Source: a virus (lineage: Duplodnaviria > Caudoviricetes). From it: a stretch of 64,000 nucleotides of DNA. Shown here piece by piece: positions 89-20,952 of this stretch. Made by a program: the position numbers and the translations under genes. The notes under the pieces are model-generated. The model saw nothing but the letters and a program-made list of their open reading frames with translations. It did not search any database and was not told where the DNA came from. Every line of letters starts with the position of its first letter. Positions within the stretch are counted from its first letter, which is position 1. The stretch lies in IMG/VR virus record IMGVR_UViG_3300002900_000020, positions 750 to 64,749 of that record; one strand, given 5' to 3'.

Positions 89-1300
89 CTACGGAACCAA
101 CTCCAATTGAGGAACCGAAACTACGGATTTATTTTCCTCTCTTGGCTGCTCCCTGTGTTTCTTAGGCAGCAGCTTCTTGGCCTGGTCTACCGGCAGGAAC
201 ATGACCTGTACCTCCCTTTCCCGGTCAAATTGGAAGATGCCGCGGCCCTTAATCCTGGGCAGGTGTGCAGCCTTCCCGTTATCCAGGATTATATCGCTAT
301 TGACCGTGTTCTTGACTCTAAAACAGATAGTCGCAGGGATGTTAGCCTTTAGCTGACCGGGTAGAATCTGTGCGTCCGGACGCTGGGTACCCACCACGCA
401 GTGGATCCCAACGCACCTGGCCAGGGTCATCAAGTCTACCATCATGGAATGAAGATAAGTCTTAATTTCCTTCTCTGTCTTCGATTTCGCCAGTACAGGT
501 GACAGCTGGCTAAACTCATCAACTACCAGGACGATATAATCCAGGTCATCGCCCTGATAGTCCTGAATCTTAACCACTCCGGCCCGGTCAAGCATCTCCA
601 ACCTGCGGTGCAGTTCCCCCACCAGGCATTCCAGAATCTGAACAGCCTTCTCAAGAGTGAAAGCATAAGTGGCATGGCGGCTCAAATAAGAGAATTCTAG
701 ACGCTTCATATCGATGATATACAGTTTACATTTCCCCAGGATGGCCGCAATCATCTGATGCAGGAAATTAGACTTACCGCCCATGGTCTCACCGGCCACT
801 ACCATATGAGGAAATTCTGTCAGATCCACGATTTCCAACCCGGCCCGAGAATAGCCGATAGGGATCGGTAAGACCATCTCCCTAGTTAGTTCATCCCAAT
901 TATCCGGAAGAGCGAAAGGAACGGTTCTTGGCAGCTTCCGGTCAAACACTCTAATCAACACCTTTCCATTAACTTCTTCCAGTTCAATCTCAGCGTTCAG
1001 GGCAAAACCTATCTTTCCCCGCTTTCTACGGAAATCACTCAGATCCAACCCGGCTGGAACGTGGAGCAGAATATCTCTGCCATAATGCCGCGGAGTCTCT
1101 TTCATCAGCCAAGGCTTAAGCGGCTTTTCCCCGGTCCGTCTAACAATGAGACCACAGTTCTCCCATATAGGGTCTAACTTCCTGGCCGGCTCTTTGGGAC
1201 GAAACACCCGGTAGGTATCGACTAAAACCTTGGCAAACAGGTCGATTGCGGTGGCCAGCTCCTTGCCTTTTTTGATGCTTATATCCTCCAAAGCGTTCAC
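89..1300 (-). CDS. FtsK/SpoIIIE-family ATPase
   Basis: Walker A GETMGGKS, Walker B VLVVDEF, GTQRPDA motif; AAGGAGG RBS before the GTG start. Confidence 0.9.
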   Translation of the reverse strand: MNALEDISIKKGKELATAIDLFAKVLVDTYRVFRPKEPARKLDPIWENCGLIVRRTGEKPLKPWLMKETPRHYGRDILLHVPAGLDLSDFRRKRGKIGFALNAEIELEEVNGKVLIRVFDRKLPRTVPFALPDNWDELTREMVLPIPIGYSRAGLEIVDLTEFPHMVVAGETMGGKSNFLHQMIAAILGKCKLYIIDMKRLEFSYLSRHATYAFTLEKAVQILECLVGELHRRLEMLDRAGVVKIQDYQGDDLDYIVLVVDEFSQLSPVLAKSKTEKEIKTYLHSMMVDLMTLARCVGIHCVVGTQRPDAQILPGQLKANIPATICFRVKNTVNSDIILDNGKAAHLPRIKGRGIFQFDREREVQVMFLPVDQAKKLLPKKHREQPREENKSVVSVPQLELVP

Positions 1301-6436: not shown

Positions 6437-8683
6437 CTAAACTCCCATTAATGCTTGAACAAATACAGCAGCATCAACGCGGCCTAAACCGTCTGTGTTG
6501 CTGGTATCCGTTCCAGGCGTTATCTCTATTATATTCCATTGTCCGACATTCATTTTGGAAGCTATATCAATGGCACTTTGATCAGTTGCATAAGTTCCAC
6601 CTACCTGGACACCATTGACCTTCACTGTCACATTGGGTGGAGTTTGACCAGTATAAATGCCAAAGCCAATCACATGGGTATGTCCAGGAACAGTCACTGT
6701 AACGGTATGACTATGAGAAGGGATTGTTATATCGTGTCGATGATGAGCATCTATCGTATGTGAATGACCGCCGGCTGCCCCCATGTTCCTGTAATCATGG
6801 TAATGGTCGCTCCCGGCAATAGTAGGAATAGTCCAAGAAGTGCTTCCACTATGGGCGTGGTCGCCCTCCCAGGACATAGCATCAGGCACAAACGCTGAAT
6901 ATAAATTATAGACATCATCGGAACTAGTCTGCGTCGTCCCCCCGCCACTACTGGAAGTCTGCGTGCTAGTCGTATCGCTCGCACTTGAAATCGCCTTTTC
7001 ATATGCCCGAAATGCCAGCAGCCTAAACCTCATTAATGCCTTTTTAATACTCTTGGTTTCTGCCGGCAAATAAACATAAAGCCGTAAAGGATTATCCTTA
7101 TCCACATTATCGGCCCGACCATCCTGCCAGGTTTGGAGAATTCCATCCTCATCCAGAACCACAGTCTGGCCATCCTTGGCAATTACCTGCAGCCCAAACT
7201 TCCCAGTCGCATACTGCCCGGCATGGAGCCTCTTCTTAGGGTTTGGAGTGCTATTGTCATAGACATGCAGCCCGTCTGCCATTAGCTTGGTATAACCATC
7301 CTCGGTGGCCAGGGCATAGAGTGCATTGACAATGATCTTGCTGGCCATGATACCCCGGGCGCTCACCGCAGTATCATATTCGTTTCCGTTGGGATCCTTC
7401 AACAACATTCCCTGGGGAGTCAACACAATCTCACCGCCGGTGGGGTTACCGGCCTGATCGGTCTCAATAATCTTAAACCCGTTATCTGTCCACTGAATCT
7501 TCCCGTTGCTCCCCAGAATCTGAGTGGCTTCTCCCACCAGCAGCCCCTTCAGCAGATTCTTTAACCCCGGGTTAGGCGCCACCTGCTCATTAACAATTCG
7601 CTGGGCCACATCCATAGATGCCAACTTCTCGGCCCAATTCTCCAGGGGGTCTCCTATCTCCAGTTCAGCCTGCTCCCGCTCAAAGAAGTTGTACCGGTTC
7701 TTAATCACCATCTGCTTAACATCGATGGCCAGGAACTCCTCATCATAAATGGTAACTACATCCCCAACCCCGAAAACCTCTCCTTCGTAGCCGGTCACAT
7801 ACCGGAGGTCCACCATTTTCACCTGGTAGTTGACCTTCGGCCGGGAGGTTTTAGCCACTTCTTTCAGGGCCGCATCCTTCAGTTCCTGCGGATCCTCGAT
7901 ATCCTGCCTGTCGTAGTTGCCCTCCTTTATGGCCCAAGACGGGACAGGGTCGGTAGGAAGTAGTTTTAGCTTTTCCCGGATATAGGTGAAATCCTCAACA
8001 TAAATCACGTTGTTATTGACGCTGCGGATATCCAGATGGTCTTTGCCGTAGGGGATAAGGCGGTTCACTATATTCGTATCAGTTTCCCGCTTGATGCTTT
8101 TCAAGTTCTTACCGTACCTGATATGAACCGGCCTCTCAATACCTGGGTTGACCACCAGGAAGACGGTTTTCTGGAGGCTGTTAAATTTCAGGTATCCGCC
8201 CCATATTTTTTGGACCTCCCAAAGGTTAGCCAGGCAGGAGAGTTTTTCTGTTTCTAAGTCGTGGGTACCCAGAACATCTACAGTACCGACTGTCCACCCG
8301 GTTGGAGCCAGCAATTGAGTCAGGACGGTAAAAGCATCGGCCCTTAGAATTTCTACGGTAATATACGGGGTATAGATGCCGCCTAACTCAATATAACTCT
8401 CCTCAAATTGAACGTTAGACAGCAGCTTACCACTATCATCCCGCTCCTCTTCCTTGCCGACTAGAACAAACTCATGGCCATCAGCAATTATGCTGTACTT
8501 ATCATCAATAAATTCCCACTTGGACGAATTCATGGGCAGAATAAATTTCAAAGTCACCTGCCCATTAAGGTTTTCCTCTATCCAGCAATTCTTTATCCCG
8601 TCCGGGTCGGGAGAGATGAAGGCCACCGTACGACTGGTGGCCCTTTCTTTTACTTCTAATGCCTTTTTGCCTACATCGACCAA
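6437..8683 (-). CDS. Tail tip (Tal-like, Prophage_tail family) protein with C-terminal spike/fibre region
   Basis: IRYGKNLKSIKRE, NRLIPYGKD, KVNYQVKMVDL, GDVVTIYDEE motifs; His-rich HSH/HTH repeats near the C-terminus. Confidence 0.85.
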   Translation of the reverse strand: MVDVGKKALEVKERATSRTVAFISPDPDGIKNCWIEENLNGQVTLKFILPMNSSKWEFIDDKYSIIADGHEFVLVGKEEERDDSGKLLSNVQFEESYIELGGIYTPYITVEILRADAFTVLTQLLAPTGWTVGTVDVLGTHDLETEKLSCLANLWEVQKIWGGYLKFNSLQKTVFLVVNPGIERPVHIRYGKNLKSIKRETDTNIVNRLIPYGKDHLDIRSVNNNVIYVEDFTYIREKLKLLPTDPVPSWAIKEGNYDRQDIEDPQELKDAALKEVAKTSRPKVNYQVKMVDLRYVTGYEGEVFGVGDVVTIYDEEFLAIDVKQMVIKNRYNFFEREQAELEIGDPLENWAEKLASMDVAQRIVNEQVAPNPGLKNLLKGLLVGEATQILGSNGKIQWTDNGFKIIETDQAGNPTGGEIVLTPQGMLLKDPNGNEYDTAVSARGIMASKIIVNALYALATEDGYTKLMADGLHVYDNSTPNPKKRLHAGQYATGKFGLQVIAKDGQTVVLDEDGILQTWQDGRADNVDKDNPLRLYVYLPAETKSIKKALMRFRLLAFRAYEKAISSASDTTSTQTSSSGGGTTQTSSDDVYNLYSAFVPDAMSWEGDHAHSGSTSWTIPTIAGSDHYHDYRNMGAAGGHSHTIDAHHRHDITIPSHSHTVTVTVPGHTHVIGFGIYTGQTPPNVTVKVNGVQVGGTYATDQSAIDIASKMNVGQWNIIEITPGTDTSNTDGLGRVDAAVFVQALMGV

Positions 8684-8697
8684 ACCATCACCCCTCC

Positions 8698-11574
8698 TTA
8701 CAGGTACTTAGTCCTTTTCTGTACTTCAATGGTTATAGTCCTGGCAGTTTCGCCATCCTGATACTTAATTGTATTAGCCCCCGGCAGGAGCGCAAAAAAA
8801 GCACCGTTTATGAGGTGCAACACATTGGTTCCATTAAGTTTGGCAGTCATGGCCTTCATATCAATGACCAACTCATCCCCTGGGGCCAGAGTACCGGTGA
8901 AGGTTATAGCCTTGGAGTCCGGGGCGACTGAGGTGGTACCCAGGATATCGTAGGTGGTGTTGATAGGGATTTTGATGGAGTGCTCGTTAATAACTTCATA
9001 GGTGGTATTGATGGGTACCTTGACAGAGTATTCGTTAACTACCGTGTATTCGGTGTTAATCTGTTCTTTGATGGAATAGAGGTGAATTATTTCATACTGG
9101 GTTTCGATTACTTCCCTGATTCGGTCGGAGCCGGTGAGGGGCCGGGAAGTATATGGGGTAGAGCCGCAAGCGAAGCCGCCCATGACTACGTGATTGCCCA
9201 CGACTTGAGGAGATACTATACTGAGGTTTGCCGTACCGGTTATCCCACCATAGGATGCTGTTACAGTAACTGCTCCATCAAATAAGCCTGTGACAGTAGC
9301 GGTGCCATCCAGATTATCGTTGATGCTGGCAATGCTAGGGTTAGAAACAGTCCAAGCAAATGGTACCGTGACATGGTTACCGTTGATATCCTTTGCGATT
9401 GCGGTAAATGTTTGGGTTCTATCAGGCGATATATTGGCCGTTGAAGGGATTAAAGTTATAGTGAAAATCGCCACAGTAGAAGATTGGTTACCCAGGCTGT
9501 CACTAACCGTTAGTATGGTACTATATGTACCGCTTGAAACAACTGCTCCAGCGTCATTCCTTCCATCCCATGTCATTGAAGATGCTCCGACAGGCTGCTG
9601 GGAAGTTATGGTTCTTACCAAAACTTTATTGTTATCGTATATTCTCAGGGTTGACTCTAAAGCTACCTCGAAAGAATCCTGGGTAGTATAGTTAATTGTT
9701 ACTGGTGTTCCAGAATATTGAATCGTTGCCGGAAAGCCAGATATAGTCGGAGCTGCTTTGGGAAGGTTTGTGGTTTTTGTAGTAGCCGGACTAGGATGGT
9801 TGTGCGTTACAGATAAATTAGATACAGTAGCGTGGACATTCTCGAAGGTAATTTTATAATGCGTAGGGGTAAAGGTATACTTAATCGTCATCAGCCTGGT
9901 TGTATCTGTGCTGTCGTATACGTCCCAGGCCATCACCAGGGTTTCGCCAGCAACTTGTTTGGTCGGTTCGTGAATATTAAGCTGACCCTGGCCAGTTTGT
10001 GCTCCTGCCAGTCTATAGGTTGTTCCACCAGCAGTAAAGGTAATATCTTTGACTGGATTAGTATTAGTTCTACGGTACATGCCAGGAATTGACCAATCAT
10101 TAGATAATCCAGCAGGTTCGTCTATTATCACGTCGTACCCTGCATATTGAATAAGCTTGATATAACCATCTAACCCCGTTTTATGCCGTAAGATAGAATG
10201 ATAATATTGGGATTCATAGCGTAGCCCTTTTTGGTCTGACTGCCCTTCCTGATCATTGTAATCGAAGTGAGCATATACCGGCATGGGGTTGGAGTTAGTT
10301 ACCACCGTTTCTAAGTAAGTGCCCAATTCAGAAACGGAATAAAAATCAAGTAAATAACCGTAGCGATCTTTCATCCATAGCATTAGCTGTTTGTCCAAAT
10401 GCCACATTTCAGTATCGCCATTCGGAAGTATTATCCCTGACCTAGCATTAACTTCTTTGAACATCCAGTAGGGGTCGATATAGCACGGAAGGAAATAATA
10501 GTCATTAAAAGTGATTGACTGAGAATCCTCCATCAGCATACGGATAGTATTCTGCTGTGCAAAATAGTTATTTGTGCTGTCTACTATCCCCAACCCTGTA
10601 ACATCGCTCTTTCCTACTATGTCCGGTTCTGGATTCATTCGATACGGCCCCCACTGCAAAGGGGTTAATCCTGCTATGATGTTTTGAGTATTTGCGGGAT
10701 TGCCGTTACCTGGGACATTAGAATGTCGCTTGGAAGGCTTGTAAAACTGAAAAGGGATACCTAAAGAGCCATTATTATCCACAGAGTTCCCTTGCTCCCT
10801 GGTTCCGCCCGGAGCTAATTTATAACCTAAAGACACCGCTTTTTCTATTAAATCATTATTATATTGCCATGCTACACTGGCAACAGGGTATTTCCCAAAA
10901 ACTTCAAAACATTTATCGTGGCACTCTTGTATCCGTTGTATCTCTGAGGTTATACCTTCGCTCCATGAAGGATTAACAGGAAACCACGCATAGTGAGGTA
11001 GGGTTACTATGTCATAACCATAACTGGTAACTAAGGTCTTTAAATAATTTAAAATATTCAATGGTTCGCCACTTGTGGCAAAAAGAATTTGTCTACTTAC
11101 ATAAAGGGTGATTTTGGTTGTAAAATTAGCCCTAATCCAATCATGTAGCGTCTGAATTTGCGCTTGCGTAGGATTAGAGGCGGTCATGTGGTCAGTGCTA
11201 GTACAAATAAGATTAACAATTACCTTACCTCTTATAGTTCCACCTGTATAGGGTGTATCTATTAATGTTGTGGTGTTTGTAACAGACCCGCTGGATTCTC
11301 CTTCTGCGTTATATGCAGTTACCTTATACCAATACTGTTTGTTTCGTTCCAAGCCAATAAAACCGGGGTAAGAACGATAACTGTCTAATTGGGTACTAGC
11401 CGGTCTTCTATCCTCATAACTGGTCGTGGTAATCGTTGCTATTTGAGTGTAGTTAGAGCCATCTTCTGACCTGTAAATCTTGTATCCAAGGGAGCCGCTT
11501 ATAGCTCCCCATGATAGGCTTACTTTATTCACGCCAGGAGTGATGTTTACTATTGGGTTACCAGGTATTGCCAT
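8698..11574 (-). CDS. Multidomain virion protein: FN3, polysaccharide-deacetylase/NodB-like barrel, FlgD-Ig, Big_2, and C-terminal Dit half-domain
   Basis: VSLSWGAISGSLGYKIYRS (FN3); MTWDGRNDAGAVVSSGTY (FlgD); end TFTGTLAPGDELVIDM...LLPGANTIKY...RTKYL matches Dit C-termini. Confidence 0.7.
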   Translation of the reverse strand: MAIPGNPIVNITPGVNKVSLSWGAISGSLGYKIYRSEDGSNYTQIATITTTSYEDRRPASTQLDSYRSYPGFIGLERNKQYWYKVTAYNAEGESSGSVTNTTTLIDTPYTGGTIRGKVIVNLICTSTDHMTASNPTQAQIQTLHDWIRANFTTKITLYVSRQILFATSGEPLNILNYLKTLVTSYGYDIVTLPHYAWFPVNPSWSEGITSEIQRIQECHDKCFEVFGKYPVASVAWQYNNDLIEKAVSLGYKLAPGGTREQGNSVDNNGSLGIPFQFYKPSKRHSNVPGNGNPANTQNIIAGLTPLQWGPYRMNPEPDIVGKSDVTGLGIVDSTNNYFAQQNTIRMLMEDSQSITFNDYYFLPCYIDPYWMFKEVNARSGIILPNGDTEMWHLDKQLMLWMKDRYGYLLDFYSVSELGTYLETVVTNSNPMPVYAHFDYNDQEGQSDQKGLRYESQYYHSILRHKTGLDGYIKLIQYAGYDVIIDEPAGLSNDWSIPGMYRRTNTNPVKDITFTAGGTTYRLAGAQTGQGQLNIHEPTKQVAGETLVMAWDVYDSTDTTRLMTIKYTFTPTHYKITFENVHATVSNLSVTHNHPSPATTKTTNLPKAAPTISGFPATIQYSGTPVTINYTTQDSFEVALESTLRIYDNNKVLVRTITSQQPVGASSMTWDGRNDAGAVVSSGTYSTILTVSDSLGNQSSTVAIFTITLIPSTANISPDRTQTFTAIAKDINGNHVTVPFAWTVSNPSIASINDNLDGTATVTGLFDGAVTVTASYGGITGTANLSIVSPQVVGNHVVMGGFACGSTPYTSRPLTGSDRIREVIETQYEIIHLYSIKEQINTEYTVVNEYSVKVPINTTYEVINEHSIKIPINTTYDILGTTSVAPDSKAITFTGTLAPGDELVIDMKAMTAKLNGTNVLHLINGAFFALLPGANTIKYQDGETARTITIEVQKRTKYL
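8939..9108 (-). repeat. About 3.5 tandem 48-nt (16-aa) repeats, INTxYxVINExSIKxP
   Basis: IETQYEIIHLYSIKEQ / INTEYTVVNEYSVKVP / INTTYEVINEHSIKIP / INTTYDILG. Confidence 0.85.
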
Positions 11575-11586
11575 AATATCACTCCT

Positions 11587-14409
11587 TTACGCTACAGTGA
11601 TGGTATCAAAAGAGTTGGTTTGCTGTGTAGTGGTGGCTACGTTGAAGTTCACGCCCAAATAGAAGCCCGAACTTATATCTAGCCCATGTGCCTGTGTTGT
11701 TACAGTAGTTACGCCGTCTTTAACCACAAAATTAGTTGCCGTCACTTCTATCGTAAATGTCTTAGTTCCCGTCTTATAGGCGGCTGTTGTGGTATCCTGG
11801 AAGAGTACTGTTCTTGTTCCAGCATTTTTCTTAATTACAAACAACCCATTGTTTAAAGTGAGTTTTACAAAATTAGTCATATCCTCTGCGTTCCCTGTCC
11901 AAGTTGTTGGAGCAATACAGATTTCCATACCACATTGGTTTATGCCCGGAAGCCCTTCCAACGTAGCGTTAATAGTTCTGCCAGCTCCTAAAGATATAGC
12001 TGTTTTAGTGACTATTCCCTTGCCGTTCCAGCTATTATTGGCCGTAGAAGCCATAACAGCCGTTAATTTATTGTTCTGTATATCAAAAGTTGAACCTGCG
12101 GTCAATGTGGTTCCGTAGGAAGTGTTATTCCACTTGGTTGCATCAGGAGCCGAACCGTTGGCCGCTGTGAAGTATTCTTCAAACACATAACTGGTAACTG
12201 TAAATGCTTGCGCAACACTCCATCCACCCCAGCCTCCTTGTGGATCATAAGCCCTAATCCAATATTTATAATCGCCAGCCCCCAAGGTTGCAGTAATGGC
12301 TTCTGTAATTGCGCCGCCATCGGCAATGTTTTTGCCCGTTCTCAACACTTTGGTGGCGCTGGCATCGTCCGGATTTGATACTGCGCTGGCCGCATAGCTG
12401 ATTTCTACCTGGGTAACGTTTGGGCCGTCCGCGTTGCTCACGGTACCGTTGGCCGTAAAACCAGAGGTGCTTATATTAGTGGCTGCTGCAACGGTTACGG
12501 TTGGGGCGTTATTGGTAGGCACAGTCACCAACTTAGCCGCACCCCAGGAACCGGCCCCGCTCGTGCTGGAAACAGCCCGTACATAAACATTGAAACTTGT
12601 CCCTATGGCATGATTGGCCGTTACTGCATACCCGGCATTCATCTGAGCAGAGGTTACCCCCGTGGCCACAATATTACCGGTGGTCCCATCAGCTATATCA
12701 AAGGTGATAGTGGCAGCAGGGTTGTCAGGGTCAGTGGGCTGGTTGGCGGTGGCCAGCTGAACAGTATAGCCGGTGGTGGAAATGCCGGTTATATTAATAA
12801 GAGCAGCATCAGGAGCCGACGGAATAGCGTCAATTACGCCGGAAGTTTGGAATGCCACAATATTGGAATCCACAGTCTGTCCGGCGGTGTCTCGTGTTCT
12901 AACAGTTATCTCATAATTGGTACTGGTATTCAGCCCTGTTACAGTCCTCGGGAACGCCGTCAGGCCACTCTGGCCGGTCACCAGGGTAAAAGCCCCTCCC
13001 TGAGTAACATTCCTGATATAGATGTCATAGACAACCGCACCCTCAAAGTCAGAACCGGGGGTAACCATATTGACATCGCATCTGTCCCCACCGACATTGG
13101 TCACGCTAATAGTTGCCGCCGTCGGCAGCATATCAGAAGCACAGCTAAAGGCGCTGGTGAAGGTGGCAGCCATCACGGTACCCACAATGTTTTCGCTGGG
13201 CAGTAACTCTACATAGAAGGGGCTGGTGGCAATGGCCAGGGCCGTGGTGTTTTCAGTTGGCAAGGCCGCTCCCGCCGCTAAGGCAACAGATTGGCTGTAA
13301 GTCCCGCCAGTTGTGTTAATTGTACCTTGCTTGGTTTCTGAACCAGAAACTGTGCCAATGTAAACGTCCGCAGCCGTTACATTCGTCGGGAAAGCCGGAA
13401 CCTGTACAGTCAACCTCTGACCGGCAGCAATTGTCACCGAAGCCCTGGTAGCGCAGGGAAGAGTCTGCCCGGCGGCAGTTACCCAAACATAGGTCACAAA
13501 ATATGTTCCGGCCGGCAGAGTAGAATAAGGGGTTGCGTCTGTTACAGCGGCAGCGGTAGCCGCAGTTGATGGGTCAGCTATTGCAGTCGGGGTGAATAGC
13601 ACCTCCCGGATCTTCGTGCTGGAGGAAGCCACCGCCTGGCCGTTCTTGTCCCTAAATTCAAAAGTCCCCAATAGGGCCGCCCCGTTTTTGTTCTTGACTG
13701 TCAGCCGGGTTAACAAATCGTCACCGTTCATATTCTGATTAAACTTAATCGACACCACCGAAGCCTTATTGACATTAACCGCATTGGCCGCAGGGGTTAT
13801 CTGGGTCACCACCGGCACTGTCCCTGATGTAACAATATCCTCGAACTTAATCCAGTTAGTCCCGTTGGAATAATAGCGTACCCCGGCCACGTAAGCATCC
13901 GCTCCGGCATACTGGGCCGGTGGATATGTCGAGTTCAACAAATCCAGGGTAGTTGCTGTCAACTTAATCTGCAGCTTAGAATTCGCTTCCAGGGCATCAA
14001 AAAACGCCTTAGCTACCGTACGAATTGCCTTCACGGCCTCATATGCGTCAATAACATGTTTGGCCCTGTTTTGGGTACCCCAGTTCTGATATTCTAACTT
14101 AGTGACCTGTTTCCCGGCCTCTGTGGTAGCGAATCTCACCCGACTAGCGGCATAGTTGACAAAAAAGGTATTGCCAACCAGGTTGGCCATGTCGGTAACT
14201 TCGCTGTACTGAATACCATTCACGAAAACCGTTACCGTAGTCGGAACGGTGCTGGAAGGTTCCCGGGCCGCCATACTTAGGTCGATTACCCCATTGGCCG
14301 GTATGGTTATTGCCCCGCCTCTTAAGGCCACTTCATCGCTGGTCTGGGGAGCATCCAGCATGTCGGTGAATGCCGTCGGTAACGCTACAATCTTATCATC
14401 CCATGGCAT
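11587..14409 (-). CDS. Large Thr/Ala-rich Ig-like/FN3 virion protein, possibly ending in a lectin-like domain
   Basis: VTQITPAANAVNVNKASVVSIKFNQNM (SbsA Ig-like); TVTGLNTSTNYEITVRTRD (FN3). Confidence 0.7.
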   Translation of the reverse strand: MPWDDKIVALPTAFTDMLDAPQTSDEVALRGGAITIPANGVIDLSMAAREPSSTVPTTVTVFVNGIQYSEVTDMANLVGNTFFVNYAASRVRFATTEAGKQVTKLEYQNWGTQNRAKHVIDAYEAVKAIRTVAKAFFDALEANSKLQIKLTATTLDLLNSTYPPAQYAGADAYVAGVRYYSNGTNWIKFEDIVTSGTVPVVTQITPAANAVNVNKASVVSIKFNQNMNGDDLLTRLTVKNKNGAALLGTFEFRDKNGQAVASSSTKIREVLFTPTAIADPSTAATAAAVTDATPYSTLPAGTYFVTYVWVTAAGQTLPCATRASVTIAAGQRLTVQVPAFPTNVTAADVYIGTVSGSETKQGTINTTGGTYSQSVALAAGAALPTENTTALAIATSPFYVELLPSENIVGTVMAATFTSAFSCASDMLPTAATISVTNVGGDRCDVNMVTPGSDFEGAVVYDIYIRNVTQGGAFTLVTGQSGLTAFPRTVTGLNTSTNYEITVRTRDTAGQTVDSNIVAFQTSGVIDAIPSAPDAALINITGISTTGYTVQLATANQPTDPDNPAATITFDIADGTTGNIVATGVTSAQMNAGYAVTANHAIGTSFNVYVRAVSSTSGAGSWGAAKLVTVPTNNAPTVTVAAATNISTSGFTANGTVSNADGPNVTQVEISYAASAVSNPDDASATKVLRTGKNIADGGAITEAITATLGAGDYKYWIRAYDPQGGWGGWSVAQAFTVTSYVFEEYFTAANGSAPDATKWNNTSYGTTLTAGSTFDIQNNKLTAVMASTANNSWNGKGIVTKTAISLGAGRTINATLEGLPGINQCGMEICIAPTTWTGNAEDMTNFVKLTLNNGLFVIKKNAGTRTVLFQDTTTAAYKTGTKTFTIEVTATNFVVKDGVTTVTTQAHGLDISSGFYLGVNFNVATTTQQTNSFDTITVA

Positions 14410-14424
14410 TTATAACCCCTCCTT

Positions 14425-14793
14425 TTAGTAGTTATAAACTTCGAAATTGAAAGCCAGTCCCGCTGCCACCAAGGCTCCTAATGGAATGTCCAACTTTACA
14501 AACCAAGATGCCGCTTGTGTTGGTTCAACATTCCCCAGGGTTAATGGTGTTCCGTCCGTCACCCATGAAGTCCCGTTCAAAGATAGGCTGCCATAACCCC
14601 TTCCATCTGAGGTTTCTCGAACCATAAGACTTTTTGCCGTCTTATCTCCCGTGTTCCTGACCCGAAATTGTAACTGGTGAACTTCTTCAGATAACTGGCC
14701 CCAGTTATAAGTCCAAGCATTACCTACTTTAGTGACCGGGTTCCATGTCGTAGTTGTAGGATTATAAACCTCTACAGTTATTGCCGCTGCCAA
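14425..14793 (-). CDS. Small beta-rich tail-module protein
   Basis: 122 aa; AAGGAGG RBS with TTG start; Ig-like composition. Confidence 0.65.
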   Translation of the reverse strand: MAAAITVEVYNPTTTTWNPVTKVGNAWTYNWGQLSEEVHQLQFRVRNTGDKTAKSLMVRETSDGRGYGSLSLNGTSWVTDGTPLTLGNVEPTQAASWFVKLDIPLGALVAAGLAFNFEVYNY

Positions 14794-14807
14794 TCAAATC
14801 CACCTCC

Positions 14808-15356
14808 TTAAGGCGTATTAACCCTTGTGATAGTGATATTGCTTACCGGCGTTGTACCGGAATTAACGATACGAATAACCGGATACTCCTCCGGGTTCCG
14901 GGCCTCCATCTGAATGTTCTGGGTCTGTTCGTTTGCCGTAACCGACCACGATACCGCTTCAGCCAGGTTGGAATAAAAGTACGGATCTGAGCATACAAAC
15001 GGCAGAGTAAATTTCCCTGCCGTAACTAATTGTTCTAATGGGATACTGCCGGAATACCGTGCCATGCAGTATTTGTCCGGGTCCTCATCCAGGATTAACT
15101 TGCGTTCACCTTTCTTGGGATTCAACCAGGCCGCTATCTGGGTTTTCTTGAGCAGAAAATCTGCACGGCTGTTACCCTTGACTATGCACTCGATTTCAAT
15201 GGTACGCTTATCGAACTCACTGCCAAAGTACCAGACCCCGTCCCGGCCAGGGACACTCTCCTCCCGGTCTCTGGTGGAGGGTGCCAGGCTTGGCATAGCC
15301 CGGGCCTTAATTCCATAGGTTGAACTATGCACCCCATCAAAAGTAAACCCGCCCAT
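14808..15356 (-). CDS. Distal tail protein (Dit), N-terminal part only
   Basis: FTFDGVHS...VPGRDG...LILDEDPDKY...FVCSDPYFY; directly after the TMP; stops before the usual C-terminal ~70 aa. Confidence 0.85.
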   Translation of the reverse strand: MGGFTFDGVHSSTYGIKARAMPSLAPSTRDREESVPGRDGVWYFGSEFDKRTIEIECIVKGNSRADFLLKKTQIAAWLNPKKGERKLILDEDPDKYCMARYSGSIPLEQLVTAGKFTLPFVCSDPYFYSNLAEAVSWSVTANEQTQNIQMEARNPEEYPVIRIVNSGTTPVSNITITRVNTP

Positions 15357-15357
15357 A

Positions 15358-18300
15358 TCACCGCCCCCTCACTCTACCGATTGATCTAGCGGACTTCCAC
15401 AACTGGCGGCCGGTTGTATCTACATCCAAGTCGCCTTCCAGTACCGTTTTTTCGGAATTAAAAAGAGGCCCATTCAGTTGTACTGTGGTGCCTCCTAATC
15501 CTTTTAAGGATGGAATTTTAGCAAGCATCGAAGTTAACTCATCAAATTTAGTGGTCATTATCGGAGAGAGGACCCGTTCATCCTTTCGCAACAGGGCTAT
15601 CCCTTCGCTAGTAGCTAATGCGCCGGTATGAGCCTTGGGCAGTATGTCAAAAGACCAAGTATCAGCATACCATTTAAGCCCGTAGCCAAGGGCTTCCACC
15701 ACGTCCCTGACGTACACCCAACTGGTCCCTTTAATTTCCTTGGCTGGCTTAAATCTACGGCCACCAATAATGACCTCCTGGGTCTTATTATCCCAATCCA
15801 CGGATTCACCTAGAATACTGGCCAGTTCCCGTGATTTCATGATAGCTCGGTCATTCATCATTTCATACTGGCCCTGGTAGATGGTGGTAATAGGGGTCTG
15901 GGTTACAGCATCTATTTCATCCTCGATGGTGTTTTGGCTTGGCGCTGCTTGGTTTTGGTTCTCCTGCTTGGCAGAGTCAATAATTTCCTGTACCTTGGTG
16001 AAATCGCCGGACTCTAAGCCCCTAATTAGTTCGTCAATCAGGGATTTACCGGTCTCGAACCATTCCGGTTTAGTGGCAGAAATTGCTGCAATGGTATCAA
16101 GGATTCCAGTTTCGGCAACCTCTTTAACTTTTTCATAATGCTCTTCAAGTTTCCGCCTTTCCTCTTCGGCGGCTTCCTTGACATCATCAATCTGCTTTTC
16201 AAGGTTTTCCTTTTTATCTTCCCTGGCCCAGTCCTCCTGCTGTTCCTGCCACCGGCGCTTTTCTTCAGCTATCTTTTTATCAATTTCCTTTATGGCATCT
16301 TGGTGCTCTTTACCGGTCCGAAGCTCGTGGTAACGCCTTTCCTCTTGAAGTTCAGCTAACCTCTTATTGTACTCTTCTTCGGCATCGGCTCGCTCGTCAA
16401 ACTTCTCCTCTTCGTCCAGTTTGGCAATTTCATCTTCCAGGCCTTTAATCTTGTCCTTAGCCTCCTGGTCGATTTTATCCATCATGTCTTTGTATTTCTT
16501 CTCGACCTCTTTAAAAGACTGATCTAGGAGTTTGCCCCTCAGTTTGACGATATCCTGGTCGATTTCCAATATTTCATCAGTTGTCAGCTGATAGACCTTT
16601 TTTAATCTGGAAAGGTATTCGATCTGCTGCTCCAGAGAGATCCTGCCCAGTTCGCCTTCCTTGCGGATCAACTCCCTAAGCTTAGCCACTCTCTCCTGGG
16701 TAACCTTTGCATAGGCCCGACCGGCGTCAACTATGGCCGACTGATTTTCCCACCAGGCCGCGGAGTTCCGCTGAATATCAACAGTGAGTTTATTCTTTAC
16801 CTCAGTCAGTTCCTGGAGTGATTGATTATAGGTATCTGTGTTGATATAGCCGGCCTTGTACAACCGGTTTAATTCACTGATTTCCCAGTTAACCTTCCCT
16901 AAAACTTCCCTGTTTTTGTTATTCAGGGCGTGCAGTTCATTCTGCTGCCGGGTATAGACAGCTACCTGCTGGGCCAAATTCTTTTGGAGCAGGTCATACT
17001 GCTGAGTTTTTTCGTATAGCTGTTCCCTGACCTTAAGCTGTTCCAACTCGGCCTGGGTAGCTTTAACAGTTGCCTGGTAGGATTCAAGGGAACTTTCATA
17101 GCCCTTGGCCTTTGTTTTGTACCGGTCGATGAAGGCTTTGGCCCGCTTGTCGTAATCATCCTCATTTTCATAGCCGGTGTGGTCAAAGATGCTGCCTTTG
17201 GGCTTTTCTCCTTTTAGACCAGCCAACCACTTCTCCGGATCTACGTACTTGCCGTTAATCTTTACCCGGAAATCCAAATGTTCGCCCTTACTGTTACCGG
17301 CCCCCCAGGTGCCGGGCTTACCCCCTGACAGGCCGATGATGTCACCGGCCTTAACTGCAGTGCCTACCTTGGCATCAGGCAGTTTGGAAAGATGAACATA
17401 GGTAACTTCTTCTCCGGAGGTAAGCTTTATAGTTACAAAGGCGTTACCCTTTGAATCTTTGCCCTTGGCGGTGATGACACCGTCTCCTACCGCCTCCAGT
17501 TCAGTTCCTTGCTTCATGGCAATATCCAGGCCCTTATGGGTATAGGAGCCTCTGTTTTCGCCGAATCTGGAGGTTATTCTGGCATCTTCCCAGGGGTTAT
17601 AGGCATTGGATGAACGGGGTGAAGCTTTGGCGCCAGTACCCTTGGTGCCGCCGGTATTAATGCCTGCTTGCTTTTTAACGTTTTCCTCAATCCGCTTTAT
17701 ATCTTCTTCCGTGTACCCTTTAAAAGCAAACCATTGCTCCCGGAGGCGTTTTAACTCCTGGTCGATTTCCATCAACCGGCGTTGGGCTTGTACGCTCCGA
17801 TCATTTTTTAACCTTTCTCTTTCTTGTAAAAGAGCGGATTCCTTGGCACTAAACTCCAGGGACTTCGATATGTTCTGGGCCTCCACGGATTTCTTATAGG
17901 CATCTGCGGTCTTGTAAAGCTGATCCTCAAGTATCTTAGCCTTCTTGGTTTCAGAATCGTAGGAGGCAAGCAGTTCTGGCTTAATCTTAAGTATCTGCTC
18001 AATGATTGACTTCATTTCCGCTTCTGCCTGGGCGCTCTTCTCAACCTGGGGCTTCAGCGCTTTGTATCTTTCAGCAAGTTCAGCAAGGTTCTTTTGCTGT
18101 TCTCGTTGTTGCTTTACTTCTCTTTCTTGAGCTTCTTCCAACTGGTCAATCGCTACTACAACGCCCAGAACTCCAGCCGCTACTCCGGCAAAAACACCAA
18201 CAGAACTGGTCGCCAAAACCCTAATTGCACCAGTGAGACCGATAGTAGCCTTTTCAACTTTTCCTACATTGGCCGCCAGGCTAATCATGCCGCTGGCTAT

Positions 18301-19917
18301 CTGTCCTGCACCCAACACCCTCATGGCGAAGTTTACGGAAGCTACCACGGCGGCCAGTTCAACCATTACAATAATTATGTCTTTAATCGGGTCGGGCATC
18401 TTTTGGAAGGTATCAATTGCCCACTTGGCCCCATCTACCAACCCTTTGAGGACATCTAACAGACCAGCTTCTCCAGCTACTACATAAAGCTCCTGAACGG
18501 CAGTTTTAAGCGCTTGCCACTTTTTCTCCAAGGTGGCCATGGTCCGCTCGTTCTCTTTCATTGAATAGCCCAAAGCCGTCTCCTGAGTGGCCACGGCTTT
18601 GGCTACGACATTCCACCGCTCTAACAGGGCGATGAAGTAGTTCCTGCGGTACAAGTTACCGCCGGCGGCTGCCAGTTCATTCTTTTCGGCATCAGTAAGG
18701 ATACTCAGTTCATCCGCAAAAAGACCGGCTGCCTCAGCAGATTCAACAAAACTGGACTGAACATCCTCCCCAATGGCGTTCCACTTAGCTGCCAGGTCTG
18801 CAAAGATCTCAGTGGCGTTCCGATAAGTTGTCTTGGCAGCATCAGCGAATACATTAATCCCGGCCTTTTCGAAGGCCTCAATGGATTTAGGCCGCTGCAT
18901 AAAGGACAAGATAGAGTTAAGGGCGTTACCTACCTCTTTCCCTGTACGGCCGGAGGCCTCCCGCATTGCAGTAAGAATCCCTATGGTTTCCTCCAGGGTC
19001 AAGTTCATTACCTTGGCTGCTCCGGAGGAACGAACCAAACCGTCGATAATCTCCTGGGAAGAGATAGCGTAATCATCGGCTACCTTGTTGATTTTATCCA
19101 GTGTGGGAAGGAGGTCCTTAGCTGTCATGTTCCACTGGGACATTATAGCTACCATTCCTTGGGTGGCCTGCTCAGAATTCAGTTCGGCGGTATTTAGGGC
19201 CAGTAAGGCGGTACGAGTAAGCTCAATGGTATCAGCCATGTTGTAACCGGCCTGGGCCCAGCGAAGGGCAATATCCTGGACTACTTCCCAGGGCTGACCG
19301 AAGTCCTTGCCAAGGGCAAATAATTCCGTCCGCATGGTCGCCATGTCAGCGGTGGCATCTTCCATCACCCGCATGATACTAACCATGCCCATTTCAACAT
19401 CACTTATAGTAGCAGTCATGTCATAGCCTATAAAGCCAGCACCAGCGAAGCCAGCTCCAATACCCATCATTTCGCCCTTGTCGGTCATCCTGTCAAGGAA
19501 GGTTTTGCGGTGGTGGGCCATCCGGGCGCTCATGCGCCTATCTTCGGCTTCCATCTTGCGGTTATGGATTTCCTGTGCTCTTTCTTCTTCACGGAAAAAC
19601 TTGTAGAGAAGGGCAGTCTGAGCAACATTAAAGGTCTGCTCCATCTGTAACCGCTTGGCATGGGATTCCTTCTCAGCCAGTTCCATTTTCTGCAGATGAG
19701 CTTGAAACGACCGGGTCTGCCTGTTGCTCATGGCGTTGACCTGGTTAAACATGCGGTTGATACGGTCGCCGACTGTCTCTACGGTCGGAAGGAACCCCTT
19801 TAGGGATTTGTCCATTTTGTCAATTGCTTCACCAAAGGTAATGGCTTTTTTCTCTATCTTGTCAATTTTTATATCTAAATCCGCAGCGATTTTATTGACG
19901 GTATCTTTCTTGGCCAT
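15358..19917 (-). CDS. Tape measure protein with M23 peptidase domain and stalk-like C-terminal domain
   Basis: TP901-type core (AQAGY...LALNTAEL); M23 motif HKGLD...EHLDF; long coiled coils. Confidence 0.93.
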   Translation of the reverse strand: MAKKDTVNKIAADLDIKIDKIEKKAITFGEAIDKMDKSLKGFLPTVETVGDRINRMFNQVNAMSNRQTRSFQAHLQKMELAEKESHAKRLQMEQTFNVAQTALLYKFFREEERAQEIHNRKMEAEDRRMSARMAHHRKTFLDRMTDKGEMMGIGAGFAGAGFIGYDMTATISDVEMGMVSIMRVMEDATADMATMRTELFALGKDFGQPWEVVQDIALRWAQAGYNMADTIELTRTALLALNTAELNSEQATQGMVAIMSQWNMTAKDLLPTLDKINKVADDYAISSQEIIDGLVRSSGAAKVMNLTLEETIGILTAMREASGRTGKEVGNALNSILSFMQRPKSIEAFEKAGINVFADAAKTTYRNATEIFADLAAKWNAIGEDVQSSFVESAEAAGLFADELSILTDAEKNELAAAGGNLYRRNYFIALLERWNVVAKAVATQETALGYSMKENERTMATLEKKWQALKTAVQELYVVAGEAGLLDVLKGLVDGAKWAIDTFQKMPDPIKDIIIVMVELAAVVASVNFAMRVLGAGQIASGMISLAANVGKVEKATIGLTGAIRVLATSSVGVFAGVAAGVLGVVVAIDQLEEAQEREVKQQREQQKNLAELAERYKALKPQVEKSAQAEAEMKSIIEQILKIKPELLASYDSETKKAKILEDQLYKTADAYKKSVEAQNISKSLEFSAKESALLQERERLKNDRSVQAQRRLMEIDQELKRLREQWFAFKGYTEEDIKRIEENVKKQAGINTGGTKGTGAKASPRSSNAYNPWEDARITSRFGENRGSYTHKGLDIAMKQGTELEAVGDGVITAKGKDSKGNAFVTIKLTSGEEVTYVHLSKLPDAKVGTAVKAGDIIGLSGGKPGTWGAGNSKGEHLDFRVKINGKYVDPEKWLAGLKGEKPKGSIFDHTGYENEDDYDKRAKAFIDRYKTKAKGYESSLESYQATVKATQAELEQLKVREQLYEKTQQYDLLQKNLAQQVAVYTRQQNELHALNNKNREVLGKVNWEISELNRLYKAGYINTDTYNQSLQELTEVKNKLTVDIQRNSAAWWENQSAIVDAGRAYAKVTQERVAKLRELIRKEGELGRISLEQQIEYLSRLKKVYQLTTDEILEIDQDIVKLRGKLLDQSFKEVEKKYKDMMDKIDQEAKDKIKGLEDEIAKLDEEEKFDERADAEEEYNKRLAELQEERRYHELRTGKEHQDAIKEIDKKIAEEKRRWQEQQEDWAREDKKENLEKQIDDVKEAAEEERRKLEEHYEKVKEVAETGILDTIAAISATKPEWFETGKSLIDELIRGLESGDFTKVQEIIDSAKQENQNQAAPSQNTIEDEIDAVTQTPITTIYQGQYEMMNDRAIMKSRELASILGESVDWDNKTQEVIIGGRRFKPAKEIKGTSWVYVRDVVEALGYGLKWYADTWSFDILPKAHTGALATSEGIALLRKDERVLSPIMTTKFDELTSMLAKIPSLKGLGGTTVQLNGPLFNSEKTVLEGDLDVDTTGRQLWKSARSIGRVRGR

Positions 19918-20298: not shown

Positions 20299-20952
20299 TT
20301 ACGCAGACCTATGTAATGTCTGAATCAGCGTAGACCCGCTAACCAAAACCACATCATCACAGAGAGCGGCAAACTCCCGGGCCTGCCTTGTGAAATCGCT
20401 TGAAGTAATCAATATCGCCCGGTCTGCCTTATGGGCCATCATGGTTCCGTATAAATCCCGCACTTCTCTGGCCCCTACCGGGTTAGACCAGTTCTTGCAC
20501 TGAACTATGGCGTATTCTGAACCATCAGCCTTCCAAGCATGGAAGTCAATACCTCTGTCACCTGTCCGGGGCGTCGGCTCGATGGCATAGCCGAGGTGCA
20601 TTAGGTACTTACCGATGAACTCCTCAAATTCTTCACCGGTTAAAGCCCGTATCTTGGCCAGTTTTGAATAAACCTTGTGAGGTGGATCTTTAGGAATGAA
20701 CTTATATTTCCGAAGTGAACGGACAAATAGAATGCAAATAATTAACATCACGACGGCTTCAATGTATTGTTTGCGAACCAAAAAGTTTAAAAAAGCAAAC
20801 CATGTCCCCAGGGAGAACAAGACCCTTGTTAACATAAGCACCATCCTTAAGCGGGGTGTTACTATCATAAGTATACCCCAAAGAGGAAGTATATGCCAGT
20901 CCACCACAAATAAATTCGCACATAGGTTCGTCTCATCCCATTGCCTACTCAC
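20299..20952 (-). CDS. Membrane-anchored Mrr-family (PD-(D/E)xK) restriction endonuclease; real start may be 20835
   Basis: Two N-terminal TM helices; LTGEEFEEF, TGDRGID, VQCK, VGAREVRDL, ILITSSDFT motifs. Confidence 0.85.
   Translation of the reverse strand: MSRQWDETNLCANLFVVDWHILPLWGILMIVTPRLRMVLMLTRVLFSLGTWFAFLNFLVRKQYIEAVVMLIICILFVRSLRKYKFIPKDPPHKVYSKLAKIRALTGEEFEEFIGKYLMHLGYAIEPTPRTGDRGIDFHAWKADGSEYAIVQCKNWSNPVGAREVRDLYGTMMAHKADRAILITSSDFTRQAREFAALCDDVVLVSGSTLIQTLHRSA

What the first reader, a model, noticed from the sequence alone, without database searches (positions are those of the whole stretch)
8698..15356. Distal tail protein split in two with ~6 kb of Ig/enzyme genes between the halves
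Seen: the Dit at 14808-15356 stops at ...VSNITITRVNTP. The missing C-terminal part (TFTGTLAPGDELVIDM...LNGTNVL...LLPGANTIKY...RTKYL) appears as the last ~70 aa of the 958-aa protein three genes downstream. Established: evolved Dits carry carbohydrate-binding insertions in this domain, but within one polypeptide. Inference: the halves complement in trans, docking a large enzyme/Ig arm on the tail tip, so the insertion grew into separate genes.
Basis: partly seen in the sequence, partly recalled or inferred. Interest (0 to 1): 0.7.

Follow-up and report, generated by a model that had tools for sequence, protein, structure and literature searches.

The report
Phage distal tail protein split in two
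In this 65-kb phage the tail-tip hub protein (Dit) is encoded in two pieces 5.9 kb apart, and the second piece sits at the end of a 958-residue Ig/enzyme-like protein. The same break occurs in many uncultured phages and prophages of Firmicutes, so the last ~70 residues probably act as a plug that docks variable arms onto the tail tip.

Summary
The 182-aa protein after the tape measure (14808-15356, minus strand) is a Dit that stops about 55 residues into its outer galectin-like domain. The remaining ~70 residues are the C-terminus of the 958-aa protein (8698-11574), directly upstream of Tal. The two pieces tile classical Dits, including SPP1 gp19.1 (residues ~10-182 and 185-235).

- **Separate genes:** every junction is TAA followed by a strong Shine-Dalgarno site.
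- **No spare copy:** the window holds no other Dit-N or Dit-C.
- **Selection:** against a relative with saturated synonymous sites, both pieces show dN/dS of 0.02-0.05.
- **Fold:** alone, the 182-aa protein models as a confident ring domain plus a tail with no paired strands.
- **Spread:** about 32 of the 150 nearest 50%-identity clusters are ~180-aa Dits ending at this position. All 12 other loci that I could read far enough carry a Dit-C gene downstream, and in the 11 where Tal could be located it lies directly before Tal.
- **Break site:** it falls in the same interval where single-chain "evolved Dits" carry their insertions.

In most relatives the second piece is a free ~170-200-aa "repeat + Dit-C" protein; here it is fused to an exchangeable Ig/enzyme-like arm.

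Trans-complementation is inferred, not shown, because the complex predictor was closed. This scan has noted split Dits on other DNA before. I found no paper describing one.

The parts
15358..19917 (-). Tape measure protein (1519 aa), directly upstream of Dit-N
   Evidence: ORF list. It is 78% identical to the L016 TMP, which carries PF10145 PhageMin_Tail.
14976..15356 (-). Dit-N, residues 1-127: the ring (belt) domain
   Evidence: PF05709 E 7e-26. The AF2 model has pLDDT 91-97 here with regular strands. VIA Z is 14.7 to SPP1 Dit 2x8k and 16.3 to the monocin tip chain 9j1k_K.
14808..14975 (-). Dit-N, residues 128-182 plus the TAA stop: the first ~55 residues of the galectin-like outer domain, ending ...ITITRVNTP
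   Evidence: This stretch aligns to classical Dits up to about residue 177-188. pLDDT is 72-89 but DSSP assigns no strands. dN/dS is 0.018 against L016. About 32 other ~180-aa Dit clusters end at the same position.
14425..14793 (-). 122-aa Ig-like beta-sandwich protein (P0002), conserved partner gene right after Dit-N
   Evidence: It is 82% identical in L016 with dN/dS 0.044, and 31% identical to the 117-aa protein at the same position in L031. The Atlas structure is like DUF11/CARDB-type Ig domains. No Pfam family.
11587..14409 (-). 940-aa fibre-like protein (P0003): conserved N-terminal part, Big_5 and fn3 domains, exchanged C-terminal ~190 residues
   Evidence: Pfam Big_5 and fn3. Residues 1-751 are 74% identical to L016 and the C-terminus is unrelated. 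Residues 1-187 are 35% identical to the L031 874-aa protein.
9775..11232 (-). P0004 residues 115-600: enzyme-like domain of no named family (DUF3863/NodB-homology-like by predicted structure), the variable part of the arm
   Evidence: Atlas TM 0.67-0.78. No Pfam or PDB sequence match. Low GC of 0.39-0.43. Not homologous to the L016 counterpart, which carries PF12979 DUF3863.
8932..9123 (-). P0004 residues 818-881: four 16-residue repeats (motif about [IV]K.[PQ]INT.Y.[VI][VI]NE[HY]S), part of the conserved adaptor
   Evidence: Read from the translation. This stretch is 70-80% identical to L016 while the residues before it are 20-45% identical. Analogous repeats occur in L017, L019, L028, L029, L031 and L033.
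8698..8922 (-). P0004 residues 885-958 plus stop: the Dit-C element, i.e. the remaining strands of the galectin-like domain, directly upstream of Tal
   Evidence: PF22768 E 1e-10 and phrog_33 positions 181-279. Matches 2x8k residues 185-235. 92% identical to L016 with dN/dS 0.051. It is the only Dit-C in the window.
6437..8683 (-). Tal (748 aa, Prophage_tail domain)
   Evidence: PF06605 E 1e-35.
9480..12156 (-). Low-GC exchanged cassette spanning the P0003 C-terminus and P0004 N-terminus, across the gene boundary
   Evidence: GC is 0.39-0.43 here against 0.47-0.54 in the flanks. The limits coincide with the loss of homology to L016.

Best explanation
This is a two-gene distal tail protein. The 182-aa product forms the hexameric Dit ring below the tape measure and carries only the first ~4 predicted strands of its peripheral galectin-like domain. 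The last ~74 residues of the 958-aa protein supply the missing ~7 predicted strands and complete that domain in trans. This fixes up to six copies of an arm to the tail tip next to Tal; the arm reads, N- to C-terminus, fn3, an enzyme-like domain, FlgD-Ig, Big_2 and a 16-residue repeat region. The 'repeat + Dit-C' unit (residues ~787-958) is a portable adaptor: in most relatives it is a free ~170-200-aa protein, while here and in L016 it is fused to an exchangeable arm. Shown: the tiling onto classical Dits, the gene boundaries, the conservation, the spread and the break position. Inferred: the physical complementation, the stoichiometry, and that the arm binds or degrades host cell-wall polysaccharide.
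For: (1) The pieces tile classical Dits and SPP1 gp19.1 with no overlap or gap larger than about 10 residues. (2) They are separate genes. The stops are TAA and overlap or are followed within 2 nt by GGAGG-type Shine-Dalgarno sites, Dit-N is in a different frame from the next gene, and promoter- and terminator-like matches are no more frequent than in shuffled sequence. (3) An HMM scan of all six frames found exactly one Dit-N and one Dit-C in the window, so no intact Dit exists. (4) Against L016, dS is about 2 (saturated) for most segments (0.84 for the Dit-C element itself) and dN/dS is 0.018 for the Dit-N tail and 0.051 for Dit-C. Dit-C is a 85-100% identical island at the end of a protein that is otherwise 20-45% identical or unrelated. 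(5) AF2 with a 121-sequence alignment gives pLDDT 91 overall. Residues 1-127 fold, while 130-182 have pLDDT 72-89 and no H-bonded strands, yet the whole chain superposes on residues 10-182 of SPP1 Dit (Z 14.7, 169 residues, rmsd 3.4 A). That leaves the last ~60-70 residues of the classical protein unfilled. (6) Generality: about 32 of the 150 nearest 50%-identity clusters are 170-195-aa Dits ending at P0001-equivalent positions 172-182 (plus up to 8 residues). All 12 other loci whose contig reaches far enough (L016, L017, L019, L027, L028, L029, L031-L036) carry at least one Dit-C-bearing gene downstream. It lies directly before Tal in the 11 where Tal was located; L033 gave no Tal match. (7) Single-chain evolved Dits in the same hit list carry their 190-910-residue insertions in the interval where this Dit is broken, after the Dit-N part (HMM matches end at positions ~130-170) and before the Dit-C core. 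(8) The polarity fits an anchor. P0003 keeps its N-terminus and swaps its C-terminus, whereas P0004 keeps its C-terminus and swaps its N-terminus.
Against: There are also no proteomic or expression data. The AF2 tail without strands could partly reflect a loose model rather than a true need for a partner. The Dit-C element might fold or dock elsewhere. Several relatives encode two Dit-C proteins (L017, L019, L029), and L032 also has a complete 237-aa Dit, so a one-to-one pairing is not the only possibility. The enzyme assignment of the arm rests on a language-model/structure atlas lead only.
Confidence: 0.7

Rival explanations
1. Minimal Dit plus an independent module. The 182-aa protein is a self-sufficient short Dit whose tail binds Tal, the tail tube or a neighbouring subunit. 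The Dit-C-like element of the 958-aa protein is a separate small domain that attaches elsewhere, for example to Tal or to the 940-aa fibre, or that merely descends from a Dit.
For: Dits without a galectin domain exist; phage lambda has only a 'minimal Dit' (PMC12474359, read). Some relatives encode two Dit-C proteins, and L032 also carries a whole Dit, so Dit-C copies are not strictly matched to Dit-N.
Against: The 182-aa protein does not stop at the domain border (~127). It keeps ~55 conserved residues of the outer domain (dN/dS 0.018), and these have no paired strands alone. The C-piece starts where it ends. Co-occurrence held in every locus that could be tested.
Confidence: 0.17
2. Decay: a Dit gene disrupted by inserted DNA in a defective element, leaving non-functional halves.
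For: A 5.9-kb interruption of a normally contiguous gene. A low-GC cassette lies inside it.
Against: Both halves are under strong purifying selection across saturated synonymous divergence. Each has precise starts and SD sites. The same break recurs in at least six tree positions and in 13 loci, counting the window. The contig looks like a whole 64.7-kb phage genome.
Confidence: 0.03
3. One polypeptide after all: recoding (readthrough or frameshift) or protein splicing joins the pieces.
For: The 122-, 940- and 958-aa genes happen to share one reading frame, separated by single TAA stops and 4-5 codons.
Against: Dit-N is in another frame. Every stop is TAA followed by an SD site and a start codon. 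The number of intervening genes varies from 1 to 11 among relatives. No slippery site or intein motif was noticed on reading the junctions and translations; neither was searched for. Three genes sharing one frame is expected by chance in 1 of 9 cases.
Confidence: 0.02

Closest known systems
Classical Dit of Gram-positive siphophages (SPP1 gp19.1, PDB 2x8k; TP901-1 ORF46, 4v96; Pfam PF05709 + PF22768)
   Same: It has the same place between TMP and Tal and the same ring domain (VIA Z 14.7 and 14.6). It has the same outer-domain sequence signature, split over two chains.
   Different: The classical protein is one 240-280-aa chain. Here the chain ends ~55 residues into the outer domain, and the rest is encoded 5.9 kb downstream on another protein.
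Evolved Dits (Lactobacillus phage J-1, lactococcal 936 and streptococcal phages; review PMC7291167)
   Same: Extra binding modules are placed in loops of the galectin-like domain. In the evolved Dits of my hit list the insertion lies in the interval where this Dit is broken, between the Dit-N part and the Dit-C core.
   Different: Evolved Dits are single polypeptides with one or two CBMs. Here the 'insertion' is three genes (2,020 aa) and the domain must be completed between chains. The inserted parts are Ig-like domains and an enzyme-like domain, not shown to be BppA-type CBMs.
Tuc2009 BppA-BppU attachment (PMC7291167)
   Same: It is a precedent for an accessory binding protein fixed to a siphophage baseplate by forming one beta-sandwich (titin-like) together with a strand extension of another chain.
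   Different: The proteins and the domain are different. The hub protein Dit itself is intact there.
phrog_31951 (PHROGs family of ~173-aa proteins, 'unknown function')
   Same: P0004 residues 889-958 match its profile positions 103-172 (E 7e-15). The free 172-203-aa 'repeat + Dit-C' proteins of L027-L029, L031 and L033-L036 have this size and layout; their membership in phrog_31951 was not tested.
   Different: In the window the unit is fused to a ~786-residue arm. PHROGs gives the family no function.
Split Dits noted earlier in this scan on other DNA (e1-4041339, e1-4043126, e1-3459916, e1-5610595, e1-5860236)
   Same: Dit is encoded in two genes. Note e1-3459916 describes the same break type, with the C-part at the end of a small ORF before Tal.
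   Different: In e1-4041339 and e1-4043126 the break is at the domain border: the ring half heads a giant protein and a whole 115-117-aa C-domain is separate. Here the break is inside the outer domain and the C-piece ends a large protein.

Membership tests
Dit (distal tail protein) of siphophages | Gene lies between the tape measure and Tal | tested here: met
   Dit-N starts 2 nt after the TMP stop, and Dit-C ends 14 nt before the Tal start.
Dit (distal tail protein) of siphophages | N-terminal ring/belt domain (PF05709 fold) | tested here: met
   PF05709 E 7e-26. AF2 pLDDT 91-97. VIA Z 14.7 to 2x8k and 16.3 to 9j1k_K.
Dit (distal tail protein) of siphophages | C-terminal galectin-like domain on the same polypeptide (classical Gram-positive type) | tested here: not met
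   The chain ends ~55 residues into that domain. The PF22768 core is on the 958-aa protein.
Dit (distal tail protein) of siphophages | Hexameric ring in the virion | not testable with these tools
   No multimer prediction was possible.
Evolved Dit | Extra module(s) inserted in loops of the galectin-like domain | tested here: met
   The break falls in the interval where 25 single-chain long Dits in the hit list carry insertions of mostly 190-910 residues (three of ~40 or placed after Dit-C), between the Dit-N part and the Dit-C core.
Evolved Dit | A single polypeptide carrying the insertion | tested here: not met
   There are four separate genes with TAA stops and SD sites.
Evolved Dit | The inserted modules are carbohydrate-binding modules (BppA-like) | tested here: inconclusive
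   Pfam finds Big_5, fn3, FlgD_ig and Big_2 only. The enzyme-like part is known only from an Atlas lead.
phrog_31951-type 'repeat + Dit-C' adaptor | About 100 residues with short repeats followed by the ~70-residue Dit-C core, encoded directly before Tal | tested here: met
   phrog_31951 E 7e-15. P0004 787-958 equals the L031 183-aa protein (34% identity, E 2e-29). Repeats seen.

The most novel reading that the evidence does not exclude
The ~70-residue Dit-C element may be a general, portable docking tag. Any protein that ends in it can plug into the open half-domain of a short Dit. A phage could then load its six Dit positions with different cargos: a bare 69-aa cap, a ~180-aa repeat adaptor, or 350-1,050-aa enzyme/Ig arms. 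Two kinds are encoded side by side in L017, L019 and L029. Host range could then change by swapping the cargo while the tag stays fixed.
Probability: 0.35. Interest if true: 0.75.

Novelty: new variant of a known kind. Interest (0 to 1): 0.6.

Why it matters
Dit is the hub on which siphophage adhesion devices are built. If its outer domain can be completed by a strand set carried on other proteins, four things follow.
- The Dit-C signature becomes a sequence rule for recognising which unannotated proteins sit on the tail tip; phrog_31951 and similar families are currently labelled 'unknown function'.
- It explains how long arms of several genes can be attached without a giant Dit.
- It gives a natural, modular handle for studying or exchanging receptor-binding and depolymerase modules in phages of Paenibacillus and Clostridia-type hosts.
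- Annotation pipelines that call the ~180-aa protein 'Dit' are missing half of it.

Tried and rejected
- **First AF2 run:** a 6-sequence alignment gave pLDDT 43 and was discarded.
- **Phage collection searches:** megablast of the region found nothing. tblastn of a free 172-aa adaptor (L028) found only C-termini of classical Dits in 4 records.
- **The search for related loci:** P0001 in viral contigs gave no relatives. Alignment A1 in genome contigs gave none. Alignment A7 was too diverse to make search patterns.
- **The search for homologous proteins:** the Dit-C region with lengths 'shorter' gave no hit at E <= 0.001.
- **The look-up of encoding contigs:** no gene with exactly the P0004 product is on record.
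- **The look-up of sequencing runs:** no run was listed and no RNA holder was listed.
- **hhalign of the 122-aa protein:** no relation to Gp80-like (PF23140) proteins or to the 206-210-aa proteins that hold the same position in other loci.
- **Tandem Repeats Finder:** found no DNA-level repeat under the 16-residue protein repeats.
- **Enzyme-like region:** Pfam and PDB sequence searches gave nothing significant.
- **Promoter/terminator scan:** no more matches than in shuffled sequence.
- **Literature:** six searches and four papers read gave no description of a Dit encoded in two genes. This is absence in the library searched, not proof of absence.
Full report
**What is there.** The window is almost all of a single 64,749-bp virus record. 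Its tail-tip module runs on the minus strand:
- TMP, 15358-19917, 1519 aa.
- A 182-aa protein (P0001), 14808-15356.
- A 122-aa protein (P0002), 14425-14793.
- A 940-aa protein (P0003), 11587-14409, with Big_5 and fn3 domains.
- A 958-aa protein (P0004), 8698-11574, with FlgD_ig at residues 622-687 and Big_2 at 706-773.
- Tal (P0005), 6437-8683, with a Prophage_tail domain.

All four junctions read TAA followed by, or overlapping, a GGAGG-type Shine-Dalgarno site and a start codon 10-15 nt later. P0001 is in a different frame from P0002. P0002, P0003 and P0004 share a frame, which I take as chance (1 in 9). Promoter- and terminator-like matches are no more frequent than in shuffled sequence. 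These are therefore separate, translationally coupled genes of one operon.

P0001 carries PF05709 at residues 12-122 and matches the PHROGs Dit profile phrog_33 at positions 38-211. P0004 residues 887-950 match Pfam PF22768, the SPP1-type Dit C-terminal domain, at positions 29-92 of 97, and residues 859-957 match phrog_33 at positions 181-279.

BLASTP against contiguous Dits from isolated phages tiles them:
- P0001 3-177 match residues 2-177 of a 258-aa Dit.
- P0004 894-924 match its residues 188-218.
- P0004 887-938 match residues 178-229 of the TP-84 Dit.

Against solved structures, both pieces find the same chain, SPP1 gp19.1 (2x8k), at residues 39-162 and 185-235. A six-frame HMM scan finds exactly one Dit-N and one Dit-C in the window, so the phage has no intact Dit.

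**Is the first piece complete on its own?** A 6-sequence alignment gave an unusable model. With a 121-sequence alignment, AlphaFold2 gave mean pLDDT 91:
- Residues 1-127 form the ring domain with regular strands.
- Residues 130-182 have pLDDT 72-89, but DSSP assigns them no strands at all.

The whole chain nevertheless superposes on residues 10-182 of SPP1 Dit (Z 14.7, 169 residues, rmsd 3.4 A). It also superposes on 1-206 of the 272-residue monocin tip chain 9j1k_K and on 20-188 of TP901-1 Dit. So P0001 follows the path of a classical Dit for ~55 residues into the outer domain and then stops, and its last strands have no partners. By sequence pattern I count about four strands in that tail and about seven in the P0004 element; this count is my inference. 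[quoted passage not shown] The simplest completion is therefore one Dit-C chain per Dit-N subunit.

**Both pieces are kept by selection.** A metagenomic relative, L016, has the same five-gene layout. Synonymous sites between the two phages are saturated (dS about 2) for most segments, though dS is 0.84 for the Dit-C element itself:

| Segment | dN/dS |
|---|---|
| Dit-N, whole | 0.032 |
| Dit-N, residues 123-182 | 0.018 |
| P0002 | 0.044 |
| Dit-C element | 0.051 |

Along the last 260 residues of P0004, identity to L016 rises in steps: 20-45% for residues 699-798, 70-80% for 799-858, and 85-100% for 859-958. Upstream of residue ~699 the two proteins are unrelated, and the L016 protein carries DUF3863.

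P0003 shows the opposite polarity. Its first 751 residues are 74% identical to L016 and its C-terminus is replaced. The non-homologous stretch, about 9480-12156, is a low-GC block (0.39-0.43 against 0.47-0.54) that straddles the P0003/P0004 boundary. So a cassette made of the distal end of one protein and the distal part of the next was exchanged between conserved ends. That is what one expects if the N-terminus of P0003 and the C-terminus of P0004 are the virion-proximal anchors.

**The arrangement is widespread.** An exhaustive HMMER search with P0001 gave 1,877 hits. Among the best 150 cluster representatives (50% identity), 38 are at most 195 aa, 85 are 196-300 aa (78 of them carry Dit-C), and 32 are longer (25 carry Dit-C). 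About 32 of the short ones (170-195 aa) end within a few residues of the P0001 end, right after a conserved N.G...I.G.T. strand.

On a tree of the ring domain the short forms are scattered. Well-supported branches force at least six changes, and the window's own clade of six is uniformly short. The tree has few columns and midpoint rooting, so I claim only 'more than one origin or reversal'.

I read the gene context of 12 further loci whose contigs reach far enough:
- L016, L017/L018, L019, L027, L028, L029, L031 and L032.
- A Paenibacillus sp. ACRRX prophage (L033).
- Two Eubacteriales MAG contigs (L034, L035).
- A Defluviitaleaceae MAG contig (L036).

Every one has the short Dit-N after the TMP and at least one Dit-C-bearing gene further on. 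In the 11 where Tal could be located, that gene lies directly before Tal. L033 gave no Tal match. Between the two pieces lie 1 to 11 genes: often a Gp80-like protein (PF23140), large Ig-repeat proteins, a GDSL lipase, and in L032 even LysM/NAGPA and amidase genes.

**What the second piece really is.** In most loci Dit-C ends a free 172-203-aa protein. Its first ~100 residues hold short repeats. P0004's own C-terminal element matches phrog_31951 ('unknown function'), a ~173-position profile of the same size and layout. P0004 residues 787-958 align to the 183-aa protein of L031 (34% identity, E 2e-29). P0002 and the first 187 residues of P0003 also have counterparts in L031, at 31% and 35% identity. 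The window's 958-aa gene is therefore an arm fused to this 'repeat + Dit-C' adaptor. In L017 and L019, a 350- or 573-aa Dit-C protein is followed by a stand-alone 69-aa ORF that is nothing but the Dit-C element. L029 has a 760-aa and a 172-aa Dit-C protein. Several alternative 'plugs' per phage suggest mixed loading of the six Dit positions.

**Relation to evolved Dits.** In the long single-chain Dits of the same hit list, the Dit-N part is at the extreme N-terminus and, in nearly all, the Dit-C core is at the extreme C-terminus. An insertion, mostly of 190-910 residues, lies between them. Where the Dit-N match runs furthest (HMM positions 164-170, for example P0088, P0135 and P0159) the insertion starts close to the point where P0001 stops. 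Evolved Dits with CBMs inserted in galectin-domain loops are well described (PMC7291167). The split form is thus the multi-chain counterpart of an evolved Dit. Which came first is not settled by my data.

**Mechanism proposed.** Dit-N hexamerises on the TMP/Tal initiation complex, and each subunit presents an open half-sandwich. The Dit-C strands of P0004 add to it, fixing the arm beside Tal. The arm reads, N- to C-terminus: fn3, an enzyme-like domain of ~490 residues, FlgD-Ig, Big_2, and four 16-residue repeats. The repeats, P0002 and the conserved N-terminus of P0003 may form further contacts; that is speculation. A precedent for a baseplate accessory protein sharing one beta-sandwich with another chain is BppA-BppU in Tuc2009 (PMC7291167). 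The enzyme-like domain resembles DUF3863/NodB-homology models only in the Atlas (TM 0.67-0.78), so its role in binding or degrading cell-wall polysaccharide is inferred.

**Limits.** The complex predictor was closed and there are no reads or expression data. The host of this phage is not identified. The relatives point to Bacillota such as Paenibacillus and Clostridia, and the nearest classical Dits are from Bacillus, Geobacillus, Paenibacillus and Oscillospiraceae phages.

**Novelty.** I found no description of a two-gene Dit in six literature searches. The scan itself has met split Dits on other DNA. Two followed-up cases break at the domain border, and several first-reader notes describe the break type seen here. 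I rate this a new variant of a known kind, with interest 0.6.

Noticed in passing
window 9480-12156: A low-GC block (0.39-0.43) covers the C-terminal ~190 residues of the 940-aa protein and the N-terminal ~700 residues of the 958-aa protein. It coincides exactly with the stretch that is not homologous in the relative L016. A host-specificity cassette seems to be exchanged across a gene boundary.
   Followed up: partly
window 8932-9123 (P0004 residues 818-881): Four 16-residue repeats lie just before the Dit-C element. Comparable short repeats precede Dit-C in L017 (DTLREV-type), L019, L028, L029, L031 and L033. Their function is unknown; they may be docking sites for the other inserted proteins.
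   Followed up: partly
L017 15499-15708; L019 10544-10753: Stand-alone 69-aa ORFs consist only of the Dit-C element. They are encoded between a larger Dit-C-bearing protein and Tal, and may act as a 'bare cap' competing with the arm for Dit positions.
   Followed up: partly
L032 6176-12692: This locus has a short Dit-N, then 11 genes including LysM/NAGPA and Amidase_3, then a 203-aa Dit-C protein, and also a complete 237-aa Dit before Tal. It may be two tail-tip modules joined, or a Dit duplication.
   Followed up: no
L016 340-873; L017 4169-4738 (window counterpart 20299-20952): An Mrr_cat nuclease gene sits just upstream of the tape measure gene in the relatives too, so this odd placement is conserved in the clade.
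   Followed up: no
L027 3941-4345; L028 5134-5529; L029 630-1052: In other split-Dit loci the gene right after Dit-N encodes a PF23140 'podophage GP4 fibre I protein gp80' domain. The window's 122-aa protein at that position is an unrelated Ig-like sandwich (hhalign finds no relation).
   Followed up: yes
L016 1255-5889; L023 6-4160: The tape measure proteins of the relatives carry a Peptidase_M23 domain and a faint Cu_amine_oxidN1 hit. The window's TMP is 78% identical but was not scanned.
   Followed up: no
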